A DNA stretch of 64,000 nt from NCBI GenBank assembly GCA_049320885.1, contig JBMORA010000047.1, forward strand, positions 1 through 64,000, read 5' to 3'. The notes beneath the pieces are model-generated. The model did no database searches. It worked only from the letters and a program-made list of their open reading frames with translations, and was not told the DNA's origin. Numbering within the stretch: the stretch's first letter is position 1; each line of letters begins with the position of its first letter. Positions 109 to 49,727 of this stretch are shown here, piece by piece. This stretch comes from Thermodesulfobacteriota bacterium. GTDB lineage: Bacteria; Desulfobacterota; Desulfobacteria; Desulfobacterales; SURF-7. The position numbers and the translations under genes are program-made.

Positions 109-462
109 TGGTGGAGGCGGCGGGAGTTGAACCCGCGTCCGAAAACATTCCACACTGGCATCTACATGCGTATCCTGAAATTTAAGTTTCGCCGACCCAA
201 GTCTCCTCCAGGCAGGATGCTTGGGTGGCTATCCCGTAAGGTTCTCGCCGGTCATGAAACGGGCGTCCAGGACCAGCCAGCCTGCGAAGTCGACGCCCAA
301 TCCGGATCTGCAGGCGCGATCCGGGAGGACGTTGGCCAGCTTACGCGGCCAAGGCGTAGTTATAATCGTCTGCGATTATATTTATTCCCGCCCTTTAACG
401 AGATGGCGGAACTCGGCATGCAACCAGAGCTTCTTTATCCCCGTCGAAGCCGTTTCGCCCCC
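109..462 (-). ncRNA. ssrA: tmRNA (SsrA); tag reading frame 373-341 encodes ADDYNYALAA*
   Basis: 5' end GGGGGCGAAACGGCTTCGAC; 3' T-arm and acceptor GGACGCGGGTTCAACTCCCGCCGCCTCCACCA; tag ends in ALAA; lies directly downstream of smpB. Confidence 0.98.
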
Positions 463-39846: not shown

Positions 39847-40848
39847 CTATGCGGGAATGAATTCCAACGGCCGGGCCTCCTTCAGGCTGATGGCGTTTTC
39901 CGGACAGGTGACCTGGCACAACCCGCAGCCCATGCATTTATCAGCGATGACCCGCATATATTCCGAAGTCCCGTCCGCCACCTCCTCGATGGCGTTGAAA
40001 TAACAGCGATCCCGGCAGGTCCCGCAGAAACTGCACTGCTCCGGATCGATGGCCGCCTGGAAGCGGCTGGGATCGCAAATCTTGAGTCCCTCGGCGATGA
40101 CCAGGGGCAGGGCCTGGCAGCAGCAGCTGCAGCAGTTGCAGATGAAATGACCCACATGGGCCTTGTTCATGGTGACATGCACCAGACCTTTTTCCTCGGC
40201 CTCCCGCAGCAGTCTCAGGGCTTCCTGCTTGTCGATCTCCCGGCCGGAGCCGCGATCGATGGTATAGAGCGCTGCATTGTTCACCTGGAGACAGACCTCC
40301 AGGGGTTTGTCGCATTTATGGGCGATGTAGCGGCAGGTGCATTTGGTGACGGCGATTTTTTCCGCGGTCTCGATGATCCGGTCGACGCTGTCGGCGTCCA
40401 GGATCTGATGCTTGCCGGTTTCAATGGATTTCTGAACCGGAATGATCCGGGTAAAGGGTTTGGGGAAAAACTGTTCCGCCAGCCTCGCGAACAGGGGCCA
40501 TTCCTCTTCCATGAATTTCTGCCAGAGGTCGAGATACTCCCGGGAGGCATCGGCCCATAAAATGGTGGCGTCGTGGAATTGGATCATGTCCCGGCACATT
40601 TTGTAACCGAGACTGTCGCCTTTGTAGGTTTTGAACGCCAAACCCTTTTTGTAAAGCGTCCGGCACATTTCCGCTGTGGAGTCCGCGGGGCGGCCCAATT
40701 TTTCCGCCAGCTGTTCCGGCGTGCCGGGCATGGCCATGAGGAGTTCGGCCTCTTCCGGGTCGGCGATCATGCGGAACAATTCCGGGATGATCCTGGAGCC
40801 GGTCATCATGATCTTATCGGTCATCTGTTCATAAATGGTCTTGGTCAT
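39847..40848 (-). CDS. Fe-S protein with an N-terminal wHTH-like region, CNCC motif and 2x[4Fe-4S] domain
   Basis: CTCR..C..C, ICNCCSCCC, CSFCGTC..RC, CMGCGLCQVTCP. Confidence 0.85.
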   Translation of the reverse strand: MTKTIYEQMTDKIMMTGSRIIPELFRMIADPEEAELLMAMPGTPEQLAEKLGRPADSTAEMCRTLYKKGLAFKTYKGDSLGYKMCRDMIQFHDATILWADASREYLDLWQKFMEEEWPLFARLAEQFFPKPFTRIIPVQKSIETGKHQILDADSVDRIIETAEKIAVTKCTCRYIAHKCDKPLEVCLQVNNAALYTIDRGSGREIDKQEALRLLREAEEKGLVHVTMNKAHVGHFICNCCSCCCQALPLVIAEGLKICDPSRFQAAIDPEQCSFCGTCRDRCYFNAIEEVADGTSEYMRVIADKCMGCGLCQVTCPENAISLKEARPLEFIPA

Positions 40849-41029: not shown

Positions 41030-41064
41030 AAAAAAAACGAACAGCCGCTGGCATCGGCTGTTCG
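41030..41064 (-). terminator. Intrinsic terminator
   Basis: CGAACAGCCG-7 nt loop-CGGCTGTTCG followed by U8 on the minus strand. Confidence 0.88.
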
Positions 41065-41106
41065 CTTTGAAAAAACTGGCAATTTCGGAAAGGAGGAGAA
41101 GTTGAT
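41030..41106 (-). ncRNA. Candidate sigma54-dependent small RNA with an anti-SD seed
   Basis: Bounded by a sigma54-like promoter and a terminator; contains CUUCUCCUCCUUUCC; no plausible translated ORF within the predicted transcript. Confidence 0.6.
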
Positions 41107-41117
41107 TATAACAATAT

Positions 41118-41132
41118 TCAAAACCCGGGCCA
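41118..41132 (-). promoter_or_regulatory. sigma54-like promoter (TTGA variant at -12)
   Basis: TGGCCCGGGTTTTGA with correct -24/-12 spacing. Confidence 0.62.
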
Positions 41133-41169
41133 AGTGCGCTGATTTTGGTAAAAAAATTTTTAGATGGAA

Positions 41170-41182
41170 TATCAATAGGTTA
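41170..41182. promoter_or_regulatory. IHF binding site
   Basis: TATCAATAGGTTA, exact match to WATCAANNNNTTR, between the sigma54 site and the candidate enhancer. Confidence 0.65.
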
Positions 41183-41253
41183 ATTTTTAGCTCAGCTGGG
41201 CCTTGATCCGGAGACCTTATCTCATCCCGTGGTACAGTCCCATGGATCAGGAT

Positions 41254-41278
41254 GATTGTCCTGAAAAGGTGGACAATC
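41254..41278. promoter_or_regulatory. Candidate bEBP upstream activating sequence
   Basis: GATTGTCC-N9-GGACAATC, perfect 8-bp inverted repeat about 125-145 bp upstream of the -24 element. Confidence 0.5.
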
Positions 41279-41288
41279 GTGTATTCAA

Positions 41289-44240
41289 TCAGGAAGTTGG
41301 TACGGAAAGGAAGTCCATCAGTTGTTCCCGGGAGAAGGCCTTGACCACTTCCGGATCGTCTTCTTTCACAATGGTGTCCAGCAGGTTGCGCTTCCTGGCG
41401 ATGATGGCGGCTATCTTTTCTTCCAGGGTTCCCTGGGTCACCAGCTTGAACACCTGGACGCCGCGGCTTTGGCCGATGCGATGAACCCGGTCCGTGGCCT
41501 GATCCTCCCTGGCCGCGTTCCACCAGCGGTCATAATGAATCACGACGGATGCCGAAACCAGATCGATCCCCACTCCGCCGGCCTTGAGACTGCCCACAAA
41601 GACACGGCAATCCGCATCGTTATTGAACCGGTCGATGATGGCGCCGCGGTTGCGGGAGCTACCCGTCAAAACCACCGACGGGATGCCTTCCTGATCCAGA
41701 TAATGCCGGATCATCCGGATCATTCCGAGATACTGGCTATAAACAACGATTTTCTGACCGCTTTCCAACGACAGGGACAGCAGTTCCTTGAATGCCTCCC
41801 ATTTGCCGGATTCATAGCGGGAGAATTCCTCCGGTCTGTCTTTCAACAGGGCCGGATGGTTGCAGATTTGCTTCAGGATGTTCAGCAGGGCGAAAATATG
41901 CAGATAGGGGATATTCTGTTCCCCCTGCCGCAGAATTTGTAACAAGCGACGCCCTTTTGACTGGATGGCGTCGTTGTAAAGCCTGACCTGGTCTTCGCTC
42001 AGGGAGCAGAAGCGCAGGTCTTCGATTTTAGGGGGTAGTTCATCGAGAACCGAGGTTTTCAGACGTCTGAGGGTGAAGGGAGAGATCAGGCGGCGGAGTT
42101 CCTTGCTTCTTTCTCCGGTTGGATATTGGGCGATTGGCTGGGCATAGCGCTGCTGAAACCCCGCATCGGTACCCAGGTATCCCGGAATCACGAGATCCAT
42201 CAGGACCTTCAGTTCATCCAGCCGGTTCTCGATGGGGGTGCCGGTCGCCCCCACTTTCATCTCCGCCCGGATCCGGGCTGCCGCTTCATATGCCTTTGTT
42301 TCCGGATTTTTTATAAACTGGGCCTCGTCAAAGACGGCCAGGGTGAATTCCCGGGGCATCAAGAGCGGGAGATCCCGCCGGAGAACCCCATAGGAGGTGA
42401 GCAATACGGTATTCCGATCCAGGGCTTTCAGTTCCCGGTCTCCGCCGTGGTATACAACCGTTTTCAGGCCCGGCGCATGTTCCCGGATTTTTCGCATCCA
42501 GTGGCTGATGACCGTTGTGGGACAGACGACCAGGAACGGTTTGCGGGTTTTGGAATGCTCCAGGAGCCATGTCATCAGAGCCATGAGTTGATGGGTTTTG
42601 CCCAGCCCCATATCATCACAGAGCAACCCGCCGAAACGATTTTCAAACAAGAAAAAGAGCCATTCGGCGCCGCGCTGTTGATAGCCTCTCAGTTTTGACG
42701 TCATCCCGCAACATTCCGGTATGCTTGCAGAGGGTTTCAGTTCCAGAAGTCGCCGGAGTCGGTCGGAAGGATCGCTTTCCCCTTTGACTTCCAGGCTGCC
42801 CGCCGCTTGAAGTCTATAGAGGTCCATGGCGGAAATGCGATAGGTTCCGGGCGGACCCGCGGGCGCCTCGGTCTGGAAAATCCGTTCAATCATGGCCAGT
42901 CCTTCGCCCTGAAAAGACTGGCAGTCAAGCCAGCCTTCCCTGATGGGCAGGAACCGCTGCCGGTGCTTGCGGGCATCGAGAATTTCCTGGAGGGAAATGG
43001 AACCGCCGCCAACCCCATATTGCACGGAAAGCCAGTACCAGTCCCTCTCCATGGCGACGGGTTCAATCTCGATGCGTTCGAAGGTTCTGAATATCCGCAT
43101 GTTCCGGACGGAATCATCCACAATGTGCGGCGGTTTCCAGATGTCGTCGCCGAATTGTTCCAGAATCAACGGGATGTTCTTGTTTCGTACAACCTTGCTG
43201 AAAGTGTTCCGGAATTTTTCCGAAATGGGGTCCGGTTGGGCCAGCCGGATGAAAACATTTCTGTCTTTCAAAAAGAACAACTGGTTGTACCGGAAAGGCT
43301 CCAGCGCTTTGCGTTCAAAATAATGCTCGGCGCCGGTTTCATCTCGGAAATGCAAATAATGCTGCAGCACCAGATCTCTGCGCTTGTTGAGGCGCATCCG
43401 AACGATGGAGGCGGCCGGATGCGGATGAATGGGGATACCGGAGGGACCCTCCAATATGCTTTTCAGTTTTCCCAGAGCCATGGGAGCCTTATCCCGCGGC
43501 AGAAAGATGCGCAGGAAAGTCCGGTCGCCGGCGTCAGCAATCACCAGGCTGCAGGAACCGTTTTCGGGATGGATGTTCATCCGCGGAGGGAAACATCGCC
43601 CTTGGGTGCGCCGGAACAGGTGGTACATCACTTTATACCAGAGTCCCTCCTCCATGGCGCACCTGCGGGTCATGGCGCCGCGTTCCAGCATGAGACGCTC
43701 CGTGGGGGACATGGTCAAAGCGGCCATTTGGTGCAATACCGGCAACCGCCGGAAATCATCGGTGCCTTCTGGATTGGGACAGCAGCGGGAACAGAACAGT
43801 TCCGCATCCGTCATCTCCACTCCGGATTGCTGGCTTGAAGAATCCGGGTAATAGGTCAACAGCGGCATTTCCTTGGCGTCGATCAGGCTTACAGTTCCAT
43901 TTTCCGCCGGAGTGTTCGGATCAAGACGGATGTCCCTCGGCGAGACCCGGGAAATTTCGAACATGACAGCTACCAGTTGATGGAACAGACTGTTGCGAAA
44001 TGTAGTATCAAATTCACCTGTCGGCGATTCGCGCTGAAGACCGCCGATGATCTTCGACAGTTCCTTGATATGGGCGCATGTTTTTTTGCTGCCTTGCCGG
44101 CAGCTGCAATAACGGCTTTCCCTCGTCAGACCGTTGGAGCGAATCCAGACGGCGACGCCGGGATTCGCATCCTGCCTCGTAGGGAAAAGGGCGATGGCGT
44201 CGCGGTGATATTCAATTCGCCACTCCGGCCGGCTATCCAT
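41289..44240 (-). CDS. SWIM zinc finger SNF2-family helicase/ATPase
   Basis: CSC..TCAH SWIM motif, DDMGLGKT, DEAQ, TGTP.EN, LKQICNHP, QATDRVHRIGQ. Confidence 0.92.
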   Translation of the reverse strand: MDSRPEWRIEYHRDAIALFPTRQDANPGVAVWIRSNGLTRESRYCSCRQGSKKTCAHIKELSKIIGGLQRESPTGEFDTTFRNSLFHQLVAVMFEISRVSPRDIRLDPNTPAENGTVSLIDAKEMPLLTYYPDSSSQQSGVEMTDAELFCSRCCPNPEGTDDFRRLPVLHQMAALTMSPTERLMLERGAMTRRCAMEEGLWYKVMYHLFRRTQGRCFPPRMNIHPENGSCSLVIADAGDRTFLRIFLPRDKAPMALGKLKSILEGPSGIPIHPHPAASIVRMRLNKRRDLVLQHYLHFRDETGAEHYFERKALEPFRYNQLFFLKDRNVFIRLAQPDPISEKFRNTFSKVVRNKNIPLILEQFGDDIWKPPHIVDDSVRNMRIFRTFERIEIEPVAMERDWYWLSVQYGVGGGSISLQEILDARKHRQRFLPIREGWLDCQSFQGEGLAMIERIFQTEAPAGPPGTYRISAMDLYRLQAAGSLEVKGESDPSDRLRRLLELKPSASIPECCGMTSKLRGYQQRGAEWLFFLFENRFGGLLCDDMGLGKTHQLMALMTWLLEHSKTRKPFLVVCPTTVISHWMRKIREHAPGLKTVVYHGGDRELKALDRNTVLLTSYGVLRRDLPLLMPREFTLAVFDEAQFIKNPETKAYEAAARIRAEMKVGATGTPIENRLDELKVLMDLVIPGYLGTDAGFQQRYAQPIAQYPTGERSKELRRLISPFTLRRLKTSVLDELPPKIEDLRFCSLSEDQVRLYNDAIQSKGRRLLQILRQGEQNIPYLHIFALLNILKQICNHPALLKDRPEEFSRYESGKWEAFKELLSLSLESGQKIVVYSQYLGMIRMIRHYLDQEGIPSVVLTGSSRNRGAIIDRFNNDADCRVFVGSLKAGGVGIDLVSASVVIHYDRWWNAAREDQATDRVHRIGQSRGVQVFKLVTQGTLEEKIAAIIARKRNLLDTIVKEDDPEVVKAFSREQLMDFLSVPTS

Positions 44241-45084
44241 CTTCCCCCACCACATGCAGCCGGGTTTCCGTATTGGCCAGATAATCGGTCAAGGCGGACG
44301 GCGGATGACGGTCGGTGAACAGGGCGTCGATTTCGTCCAGGTTGCCGAGGCGCACCATGGCGTTCCGGCCGAATTTCGTATGGTCGGCGGCCAGGAAGAC
44401 GCTGCGGGAATTGTCGATGATGGCTCTGGCGGCCCGCACCTCCCGATAATCGAAATCCAGCAGGGTGCCGTCTAGGTCGATGCCGCTGATGCCGATGATG
44501 CCGAAATCGACTTTGAACTGGCGGATGAAATCAATGGCTGCCTCGCCGATGATACCGCCGTCGCGGCTGCGCACCAGTCCGCCGGTGACGATGATTTCAA
44601 ACCCTTCGTTTTTGCTCAGGATGGCGGCCACGTTCAGGTTGTTGGTGATCACCCGCAAGCCGCGATGACGGCAGAGGGCCTCGGCCACCGCTTCCGTGGT
44701 GGTTCCGATGTTGATGAACAGGGAGGAGTGGTTCGGGATATGCTGGACAAGGGCCTGGGCGATTTTCTGTTTTTCGTGCAGGCAGAGAACCCGGCGTTCC
44801 GGATAGGAGACATTTTCCGTGCTGAGGGTGTTGGCTGCTCCTCCATGGTAGCGGTGCAGCAGGCCTTCATCGCTAAGGGTCTGGATGTCCCGCCGGATGG
44901 TCTGGGGGGTGACGTCGAACCGGTTGGCCAGGGTTTCGATGGTCACGAAACCCTGTTCCCGGACGGCTTCCAGGATGCGGGCATGACGGTTGCGGACAGT
45001 GGCGGATTTGCCGTCGCCGTCCAGAGCCGGTTGCGGACCGCGGGATCGTCCGGCCATGATTTTTTTCTGTTCCCCTTCGGTCAT
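44233..45084 (-). CDS. glpR: DeoR family glycerol regulon repressor GlpR
   Basis: VTPQTIRRD HTH, RYHGGA, FINIGTT, VITNNL, LLDFDYREV, DHTKFGR; divergent from the glycerol ABC operon. Confidence 0.9.
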   Translation of the reverse strand: MTEGEQKKIMAGRSRGPQPALDGDGKSATVRNRHARILEAVREQGFVTIETLANRFDVTPQTIRRDIQTLSDEGLLHRYHGGAANTLSTENVSYPERRVLCLHEKQKIAQALVQHIPNHSSLFINIGTTTEAVAEALCRHRGLRVITNNLNVAAILSKNEGFEIIVTGGLVRSRDGGIIGEAAIDFIRQFKVDFGIIGISGIDLDGTLLDFDYREVRAARAIIDNSRSVFLAADHTKFGRNAMVRLGNLDEIDALFTDRHPPSALTDYLANTETRLHVVGEDG

Positions 45085-49526: not shown

Positions 49527-49727
49527 AGGGCGGTCATCCACAAATCGCCCGAAAAAATCATACTGCGCGTTTCTTTTTTTATCCTGAAGCAACTCCATAA
49601 CCACCATCTGTTTTTTTGTTGGCGCTACCTGTAAGTGTTTATGCTGACCGGCGGTTGCGGCCTTCACACCGGCTGCGTAAACGGACAATCACCATTGAGG
49701 GCCGAAAATGAAGAAGGAGGAGGTCGT

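What the first reader, a model, noticed from the sequence alone, without database searches (positions are those of the whole stretch)
41030..41278. Candidate sigma54/IHF-controlled anti-Shine-Dalgarno small RNA in an apparently empty intergenic region
Seen in sequence, in transcription order on the minus strand: an 8-bp palindrome GATTGTCC-N9-GGACAATC (41254-41278); an exact IHF consensus TATCAATAGGTTA (41170-41182); a -24/-12 element TGGCCCGGGTTTTGA (41132-41118); then about 77 nt reading AUCAACUUCUCCUCCUUUCCGAAAUUGCCAGUUUUUUCAAAG, a 10-bp hairpin and U8. Established: enhancer-IHF-(-24/-12) is the canonical sigma54 promoter layout. Inference: this promoter serves no protein gene, because the terminator comes first, so its product would be an sRNA. 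Its exposed 5' CUCCUCCUU is complementary to strong ribosome binding sites. The glpV-like RBS in this window (AAGGAGGAG, about 49714-49722) is a 9-nt match. A less likely reading is a 34-codon TTG-start ORF on the plus strand using AGGAGG as its RBS.
Basis: partly seen in the sequence, partly recalled or inferred. Interest (0 to 1): 0.85.

Follow-up and report, generated by a model that had tools for sequence, protein, structure and literature searches.

The report
Small RNA silencing a pilus-like gene
This apparently empty stretch is very probably the gene for a short regulatory RNA that sticks to the start of the message for a surface-filament protein, whose sequence has changed in step with it across related species, so it likely acts as an off-switch for filament production in these anaerobic bacteria.

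Summary
Every motif is at the stated coordinates. The unit (enhancer, IHF site, -24/-12 box, about 77-nt RNA, terminator) is conserved in both congeners although the flanking genes differ. The palindrome is one of two tandem sites 21 bp apart. A matrix built from these sites alone recovers seven more promoters with the same geometry, and 7 of 8 share the odd -12 GA, so sigma54 control is well supported. The best target is matched by a second seed (41068-41084). It pairs over 17 nt with the start codon and codons 2-6 of a DUF6160/FilA-like gene heading a Fil-type filament operon behind a c-di-GMP-I riboswitch. This is the only match of 15 nt or more in the genome. sRNA and target covary in both congeners, and 0 of 18 DUF6160 starts in other genera carry the site. 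No Hfq was found and there is no Rfam match. Similar sigma54 + CUCCUCCUUUC + terminator genes occur in other Desulfobacterales-type genomes with different enhancers. No expression data exist; transcription and repression are inferred.

The parts
41258..41274 (-).
   Evidence: Conserved in both congeners; the same motif heads 7 other promoters
41237..41253 (-). Enhancer site 2 (ATCC-N9-RGAC), 21 bp (two helical turns) from site 1
   Evidence: Conserved in G001 and G002 at the same spacing, 101-104 bp before the -24 box
41170..41182 (+). IHF consensus site in an AT-rich tract
   Evidence: Exact match here, one mismatch in each congener; best IHF-like match centred -44 to -49 from the -24 box in 9 of 10 promoters examined
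41118..41133 (-). Sigma54 -24/-12 promoter with non-canonical -12 (GA)
   Evidence: TTGG...TTG invariant in 3 of 3 genomes; GA at -12 in 7 of 8 regulon promoters
41105..41133 (-). Overlapping sigma70-like -35/extended -10 match (rival promoter, not conserved)
   Evidence: 10 of 12 match; -10 absent in both congeners
41030..41106 (-). Predicted sRNA, about 77 nt (about 85 nt in G001, 91 nt in G002); 5' end inferred from sigma54 spacing, not measured
   Evidence: unstructured 5' half plus terminator; no Rfam family
41087..41101 (-). Seed 1: single-stranded CU-rich anti-Shine-Dalgarno motif (CUCCUCCU core)
   Evidence: Core invariant in 3 of 3; shared with a wider class; no specific target established
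41068..41084 (-). Seed 2: 17 nt complementary to the AUG and codons 2-6 of the DUF6160/FilA-like gene at G000:C57:28283
   Evidence: Only complement of 15 nt or more in the genome; covaries with the target in G001 and G002
41030..41068 (-). Intrinsic terminator: 13-14-bp stem, 7-nt loop repeating the UGCCAG core of seed 2, U8
   Evidence: 39 of 39 cells paired, one two-sided and one one-sided change among 3 sequences
41289..44255 (-). Upstream SNF2 helicase gene (context only; absent at this place in G002)
   Evidence: Pfam
39847..40848 (-). Downstream 4Fe-4S protein gene (context only; after the terminator, not adjacent in G001)
   Evidence: Pfam

Best explanation
A stand-alone, Hfq-independent trans-acting sRNA of about 77 nt. 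An enhancer-binding protein (unidentified) binds two tandem sites, IHF bends the DNA, and sigma54 polymerase starts near 41106. The RNA pairs through seed 2 with the start codon and codons 2-6 (up to codon 10 in the congeners) of the first gene of a Fil-type surface-filament operon (DUF6160/FilA-like), blocking ribosome loading and lowering filament production. That mRNA also carries a c-di-GMP-I-type riboswitch, so filament synthesis is gated both by the cyclic-dinucleotide signal and by the sigma54 regulon. Seed 1 (anti-SD) probably adds weaker targets with strong ribosome-binding sites, or gives an alternative contact on the same mRNA's SD. Shown: motifs, conservation, regulon layout, complementarity, covariation, riboswitch, operon families. 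Inferred: transcription, start site, sigma54 dependence, repression, the role of seed 1, the filament function.
For: Unit conserved with changed flanks. A matrix from the six enhancer half-sites alone gives 10 tandem hits at 21-bp spacing, 8 intergenic, against 1-8 hits (0-4 intergenic) at the other spacings from 17 to 33; eight promoters share distance (94-105 bp) and box, and the arrangement is kept in G001 and G002. Seed 2 has a 17-nt perfect complement, the only one of 15 nt or more in the genome; 8 of 2000 shuffles reach 17 nt in start regions; rank 3 of 1531 scored genes with accessibility. G001: a synonymous A-to-G change in codon 2 of the syntenic target is matched by U-to-C in the sRNA (-25.1 cognate against -18.7 kcal/mol), and an extra seed copy pairs with codons 8-10. 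G002: a target change at codon 10 is matched by a G002-specific sRNA insert (-26.8 against -23.0 and -22.9). In G001 and G002 the 16-mer occurs only in the sRNA and at DUF6160 start codons, 5 of 5 matches. 0 of 18 DUF6160 starts from other genera carry it, including a riboswitch-core-bearing relative in G004, where no sRNA was found. The riboswitch passes the Rfam cut-off in the three syntenic orthologues and in none of three paralogues. Operon families.
Against: No expression, start-site or reporter data. Only three related genomes carry this sRNA, so the covariation rests on two events in non-independent species. The G000 sRNA pairs slightly better with the congeners' targets in the extended duplex (-25.7 and -24.3 against -23.9). 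Plain duplex folding did not place the target among the top rows shown, and two genes outrank it with accessibility. Codon conservation in the paired region (6 of 7 against 17 of 37 downstream) is confounded by general selection on A-rich N-termini. Seed 1 lies 5' of seed 2 while the SD lies 5' of the start codon, so the two cannot pair in one collinear duplex. A G001 paralogue (C63) keeps the uncompensated codon. The Fil matches are all below the NCBIfam cut-offs.
Confidence: 0.72

Rival explanations
1. A real sigma54 sRNA whose main action is broad anti-SD repression through seed 1, on targets such as glnB, a rubrerythrin or a small basic protein; the DUF6160 match is secondary.
For: The seed-1 core is invariant in the genus and shared by the order-wide class. 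The glnB RBS gives an 11-nt match and is identical in all three genomes. Most top accessibility-ranked sites are SD sites. Cuckoo/NfeR1 sRNAs act this way without Hfq (PMC10746234, passages).
Against: The G001 U-to-C change in seed 1 is not compensated in its glnB RBS (-15.6 against -22.7). 114 of 4395 genes match with 9 nt or more, so no target stands out. Seed 2 shows covariation.
Confidence: 0.15
2. The RNA activates rather than represses the target, or works by RNase recruitment: pairing opens the riboswitch expression platform, or triggers cleavage that separates the first gene from the rest of the operon.
For: Folding of the leader after the aptamer puts part of the SD region and codons 5-10 in weak hairpins, which the sRNA could open. 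Seed 1 can pair with the target SD at -12 to -13 kcal/mol.
Against: The duplex covers the AUG itself, which generally blocks initiation (established knowledge, recalled).
Confidence: 0.06
3. The RNA exists but is made from the overlapping sigma70-type promoter, or is only the processed 3' end of the glpR-SNF2 transcript; the upstream motifs serve something else.
For: 10-of-12 sigma70 match with extended -10. The hairpin is the first terminator after the upstream genes.
Against: The -10 is not conserved while the -24/-12 box, IHF site and tandem enhancer are. The same cassette drives seven other loci. The upstream gene differs in G002.
Confidence: 0.05
4. The plus-strand 34-codon ORF is the product, or the region is only a terminator plus chance motifs.
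For: A purine-rich run and a TTG are present in G000.
Against: No equivalent start in the congeners. The U-tract and promoter point the other way in all class members.
Confidence: 0.02

Closest known systems
Cuckoo family (ar14/NfeR1, RSs0680/CcsR) of Alphaproteobacteria
   Same: C-rich anti-SD motif; NfeR1 is Hfq-independent and blocks translation initiation (PMC4615179, PMC10746234, passages). ar14 was a weak sub-threshold hit (14.5 bits against a cut-off of 58.8).
   Different: Cuckoo RNAs have 2-4 hairpins, each with the motif in its loop. This RNA has one single-stranded copy, a second target-specific seed and a sigma54 enhancer; the NfeR1 promoter lacks the sigma54 signature (PMC10746234).
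Sigma54/EBP-driven sRNAs: Vibrio Qrr, enterobacterial GlmY/GlmZ
   Same: Enhancer-dependent sigma54 transcription of a short regulatory RNA (PMC10162802, PMC3045617: listing and abstract start only; the IHF role is recalled).
   Different: No Rfam match to these families. The host has no detectable Hfq, on which Qrr and GlmZ depend (recalled). Different target.
Desulfovibrio vulgaris Dv_sRNA2 under the sigma54 response regulator DVU0679
   Same: An sRNA as the target of a sigma54 regulator in a sulfate reducer (PMC3333781, passages and Table S7).
   Different: Function unknown there; its binding motif is a different palindrome.
LurR (DVU3023) binding motif
   Same: GTCC...RGAC inverted repeat in multiple copies (PMC3333781, Table S7).
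   Different: Spacer is 8 bp there and 9 bp here. The targets here are not lactate genes.
Acinetobacter Fil system (FilA-D) as the target operon
   Same: Best NCBIfam matches of the operon's genes are FilA, FilB, FilC and FilD. FilA is described as a curved filament of unknown function (PMC10980823, passage).
   Different: All scores are below the cut-offs. Five DUF6160 genes, a 2185-aa repeat protein and c-di-GMP-I riboswitches are present here.

Membership tests
Sigma54-dependent promoter | -24 GG and -12 GC at fixed spacing | tested here: inconclusive
   GG and spacing conserved, but -12 reads GA or GT in 3 of 3 genomes; GA is shared by 7 of 8 promoters of the regulon
Sigma54-dependent promoter | Upstream tandem enhancer about 80-150 bp away | tested here: met
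Sigma54-dependent promoter | IHF site between enhancer and promoter | tested here: met
   centred -44 to -49 in 9 of 10 promoters, 0-3 mismatches
Sigma54-dependent promoter | RpoN and activators encoded in the genome | tested here: met
Sigma54-dependent promoter | Transcription requires RpoN and an activator | not testable with these tools
   Needs genetics or in vitro transcription
Trans-acting base-pairing sRNA | Own promoter and intrinsic terminator, no conserved ORF | tested here: met
Trans-acting base-pairing sRNA | Conserved single-stranded seed complementary to a distant mRNA, with covariation | tested here: met
   (three genomes only)
Trans-acting base-pairing sRNA | Transcript detected and target regulated | not testable with these tools
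   No RNA run to lay on the region; needs experiments
Cuckoo / ar14 family | 2-4 adjacent hairpins, each loop with CCUCCUCCC | tested here: not met
   One unpaired CU motif and only the terminator hairpin
Cuckoo / ar14 family | Rfam score above the gathering threshold | tested here: not met
   14.5 against 58.8 bits
Qrr / GlmY-GlmZ | Match to the family model | tested here: not met
Qrr / GlmY-GlmZ | Hfq present in the host | tested here: not met
   0 matches in a genome 98% complete
CsrB/RsmY-type protein sponge | Repeated GGA motifs on the transcribed strand | tested here: not met
   The GGA runs are on the opposite strand, although CsrA is encoded
c-di-GMP-I riboswitch (target leader) | Rfam score above the gathering threshold | tested here: met
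   62.1, 62.1 and 58.9 bits against 59, 59 and 35
c-di-GMP-I riboswitch (target leader) | Ligand is c-di-GMP, and direction of control | not testable with these tools
   Variants with other ligands exist (recalled); needs binding assays
Acinetobacter Fil pilus system (target operon) | FilA-D family scores above the curated cut-offs | tested here: not met
   28.7/220, 201/475, 189/630, 271/970 bits: Fil-like, not assigned

The most novel reading that the evidence does not exclude
This is the first target-resolved member of an undescribed class of short, Hfq-independent, sigma54-driven anti-SD sRNAs of Desulfobacterales, each wired to its own enhancer. In this genus the RNA has gained a second seed that co-evolves with a c-di-GMP-riboswitch-controlled filament mRNA, so that riboswitch and sRNA gate the same translation start. 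It belongs to an undescribed regulon marked by a non-canonical -12 GA.
Probability: 0.45. Interest if true: 0.8.

Novelty: new variant of a known kind. Interest (0 to 1): 0.68.

Why it matters
Very little is known of trans-acting sRNAs in sulfate-reducing bacteria: 10.1101/803072 calls itself the first study to suggest a definitive sRNA role in Desulfovibrio. Here sequence alone yields a promoter, a regulon, a specific target with compensatory changes, and a link between sigma54 signalling and c-di-GMP control of a Fil-type surface filament, in a host without detectable Hfq. The pairing can be tested at once in a heterologous reporter, and it gives a regulatory handle on the little-studied DUF6160/Fil filaments. 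The mechanism itself (antisense block of a start codon) is conventional, and this exact sRNA was found in one genus only.

Tried and rejected
Rfam: no family over threshold for this element or for eight loci of the wider class. RNA reads: no RNA holder listed, so none could be laid. glpV as target: not special. glnB: RBS invariant but no compensatory change. ppdK has an 11-nt seed-2 match with an SD in collinear order; its conservation was not checked. Plain duplex ranking was dominated by long, gapped duplexes. Paralogues of the sRNA in the own genome: none. Wider homologues of this exact sRNA: covariance model over 18 family genomes and 151 order genomes; the 7 weak hits inspected lacked the seed. 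Promoter + seed-2 pattern: 22 of 401 genomes matched, only the 3 congeners look real from the matched strings, and the rest were not examined further. Activator identity: two EBP genes lie beside regulon enhancers (C43:1868, C35:27207), but outside the genus only 1 of 28 and 0 of 28 homologue loci had a tandem site, so it is unresolved. The tandem enhancer was not found upstream of 16 loci of the wider class. No clear long target for one other subfamily in 5 genomes. Canonical box + seed pattern: 0 of 401 phylum-wide genomes, mostly other orders. The 16S rRNA 3' end was not found in the assembly. No solved structure for the target protein; the Atlas gave only DUF6160 clusters. Earlier scan notes: nothing similar by place, words or sequence.

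Full report
Observation. The predicted 77-nt RNA folds into an unpaired 5' half and a 13-14-bp terminator (z = -3.85). Rfam has no family for it: the only gathering-level hit in the window is tmRNA, and the best sRNA hit, ar14, scores 14.5 against 58.8. A sigma70-type match overlaps the box.

Conservation. Of 41 genomes searched, 4 matched: the own genome, both congeners over the box-to-terminator part, and one 35-base piece of the terminator in another family. The alignment shows invariant blocks at the enhancer, the IHF tract, the -24/-12 box, the CU seed, an 11-nt linker and the terminator, while the sigma70 -10 is lost. Flanks differ: G002 has glpR directly upstream, G001 a different downstream neighbour. 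The terminator pairs in 39 of 39 cells with one two-sided change, which three sequences cannot make significant (162 of 500 shuffles). The plus-strand ORF has no counterpart in the congeners. A covariance model found no further homologue in 18 family genomes (3 strong; 4 weak, inspected and rejected) and no second copy in the own genome.

Promoter. The palindrome is the first of two sites 21 bp apart, 101-104 bp before the box in all three genomes. A matrix from those six half-sites alone gave 10 tandem hits at spacing 21, 8 of them intergenic and one the element itself; other spacings from 17 to 33 gave 1-8 hits, 0-4 intergenic. Six of the seven other intergenic hits, plus one lower-scoring hit, have a sigma54-type box 94-105 bp away; 7 of these 8 promoters (the sRNA's included) read GA at -12. 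The best IHF-like match is centred -44 to -49 in 9 of 10 promoters, congeners included. Six congener loci that I read keep the cassette in front of homologous genes. The downstream genes are a second sigma54 activator, a PilZ protein, a weak glyoxalase-II-like protein and four small proteins without a Pfam family. The genome encodes RpoN, 42 strong sigma54-activator matches among 47, 7 IHF/HU-family genes and CsrA; no Hfq was found at 98% completeness. The activator is unresolved. The motif resembles that of LurR but has a spacer one base longer (PMC3333781, Table S7).

Target. I called 4410 genes with a simple own model and tested 4395. Seed 1 matches 114 ribosome-binding regions with 9 nt or more; glpV ranks 417th. 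glnB has an 11-nt match and an invariant RBS, but does not follow the G001 change in seed 1. The invariant linker (seed 2) matches G000:C57:28283 from the U of the AUG through codon 6. This 17-nt match is the only one of 15 nt or more in the genome; 8 of 2000 dinucleotide shuffles reach 17 nt in start regions; with accessibility it ranks 3 of 1531 scored genes. The gene is DUF6160, first in an operon with further DUF6160 genes, a 2185-aa repeat protein, a C39 peptidase and two outer-membrane proteins, whose best NCBIfam matches are FilA-D, all below cut-off. Its leader holds a c-di-GMP-I-type riboswitch in the three syntenic orthologues and in none of three paralogues.

Covariation. In G001 the syntenic target has a synonymous A-to-G change in codon 2 and the sRNA has the matching U-to-C; its extra seed copy pairs with codons 8-10. 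In G002 the target changes at codon 10 and a G002-specific insert in the sRNA pairs with the new bases; a C-to-U change opposite the G of the AUG keeps a wobble pair. Extended duplex energies, cognate first: G001 -40.3 against -36.4 and -30.4; G002 -26.8 against -23.0 and -22.9; G000 -23.9 against -25.7 and -24.3, so G000 is not cognate-best. In G001 and G002 the degenerate 16-mer has 5 matches, 2 in the sRNAs and 3 at DUF6160 start codons. Among 22 DUF6160 loci from other genera, 18 gave a start and 0 of 18 carry the site, 4 gave no start; G004, 75% identical over the first 44 residues and with a riboswitch core, has lost it and gave no sRNA hit at 89% completeness. Against: three related genomes, two events; one G001 paralogue keeps the uncompensated codon; N-terminal codons are constrained anyway.

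Mechanism. Pairing over the AUG and first codons most likely blocks initiation (established knowledge, recalled). Seed 1 can pair with the same mRNA's SD (-12 to -13 kcal/mol) but not collinearly with seed 2, so it is either an alternative contact or serves other targets. Confidence in the whole explanation: 0.72.

Wider class. The model found one element in another family with IHF site, sigma54 box, CU seed and terminator (1 of 4 non-genus hits among 151 genomes). A pattern matched 89 of 401 order genomes, mostly noise; of 50 matches read (30 returned, 20 hand-picked), 7 had this layout by eye. A scan of the species-wide collection gave 85 loci and the viral collection 2. 13 of the 87 have a terminator within 100 nt: 12 titled Desulfobacterales or deltaproteobacterium and one untitled near-copy of such a record. 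Three delta-titled loci had none within that range, and none of the other 71 had one. These RNAs differ outside the seed, in flanks and in enhancers, match no Rfam family (8 loci), and the canonical pattern was not found in 401 phylum-wide genomes. Common descent is not shown.

Literature. Nine searches gave no description of this sRNA, class, regulon or sRNA control of DUF6160/Fil genes; DUF6160 appears in one paper (listing only). Seen: PMC3333781, passages and supplement Tables S7, S8 and the start of S9; PMC10746234, PMC4615179, PMC10980823 and 10.1101/803072, passages; PMC10162802 and PMC3045617, listing and abstract start only. Subscription journals, bioRxiv supplements and the Dv_sRNA2 sequence were not seen, so a sulfate-reducer sRNA catalogue could hold a class member.

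Verdict. A real, conserved regulatory gene; the sigma54 sRNA reading is supported, the proposed target is replaced by a riboswitch-controlled Fil-type filament gene. New variant of a known kind; interest 0.68.

Noticed in passing
G000:C57:43800-44160 (L277:15801-16152); L278:3168-3513; L279:18635-18910: Tandem c-di-GMP-I-type aptamers in front of the last DUF6160 gene of the target operon: four by pattern in G000, three over the Rfam cut-off in each of the three genomes.
   Followed up: partly
G000 C35:27024, C43:1663, C50:59014, C28:35371, C27:113787, C9:436700, C9:92340: An apparently undescribed sigma54 regulon with tandem RTCC-N9-RGAC sites and a -12 GA signature, driving a second activator, a PilZ protein and small proteins of no family.
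   Followed up: partly
G000 C28:111726 and C24:26961-27001: Weaker regulon candidates at 85-88 bp spacing: a chemoreceptor gene and a 165-aa protein of no family.
   Followed up: no
L072, L073, L074, L077, L079, L086, L095, L121, L122, L133, L134, L136, L137; also L025, L031, L050-L054: Several subfamilies of sigma54 + CUCCUCCUUUC + terminator genes; in some the seed extends into an anti-start-codon triplet, in others it sits in a hairpin loop; L077 and L133 come from one assembly.
   Followed up: partly
L139, L150: Canonical sigma54 box and the seed inside a hairpin, longer, with no terminator within 100 nt.
   Followed up: no
L082:401-456, L080, L087: Near-canonical sigma54 boxes followed by the same CU motif outside Desulfobacterota, without a nearby terminator; possibly leaders with an SD-sequestering element.
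   Followed up: no
G000:C68:32197-35085: The pyruvate phosphate dikinase leader has an 11-nt complement to seed 2 followed by an SD in the order that would let both seeds pair.
   Followed up: no
G000:C57:28100-28125; L228; L226: A conserved strong SD-like purine run about 170 nt upstream of the target start codon, before the riboswitch, in all three genomes; possibly a small leader ORF or a further seed-1 site.
   Followed up: no
window 109-462 (-): tmRNA gene.
   Followed up: no
   Followed up: no
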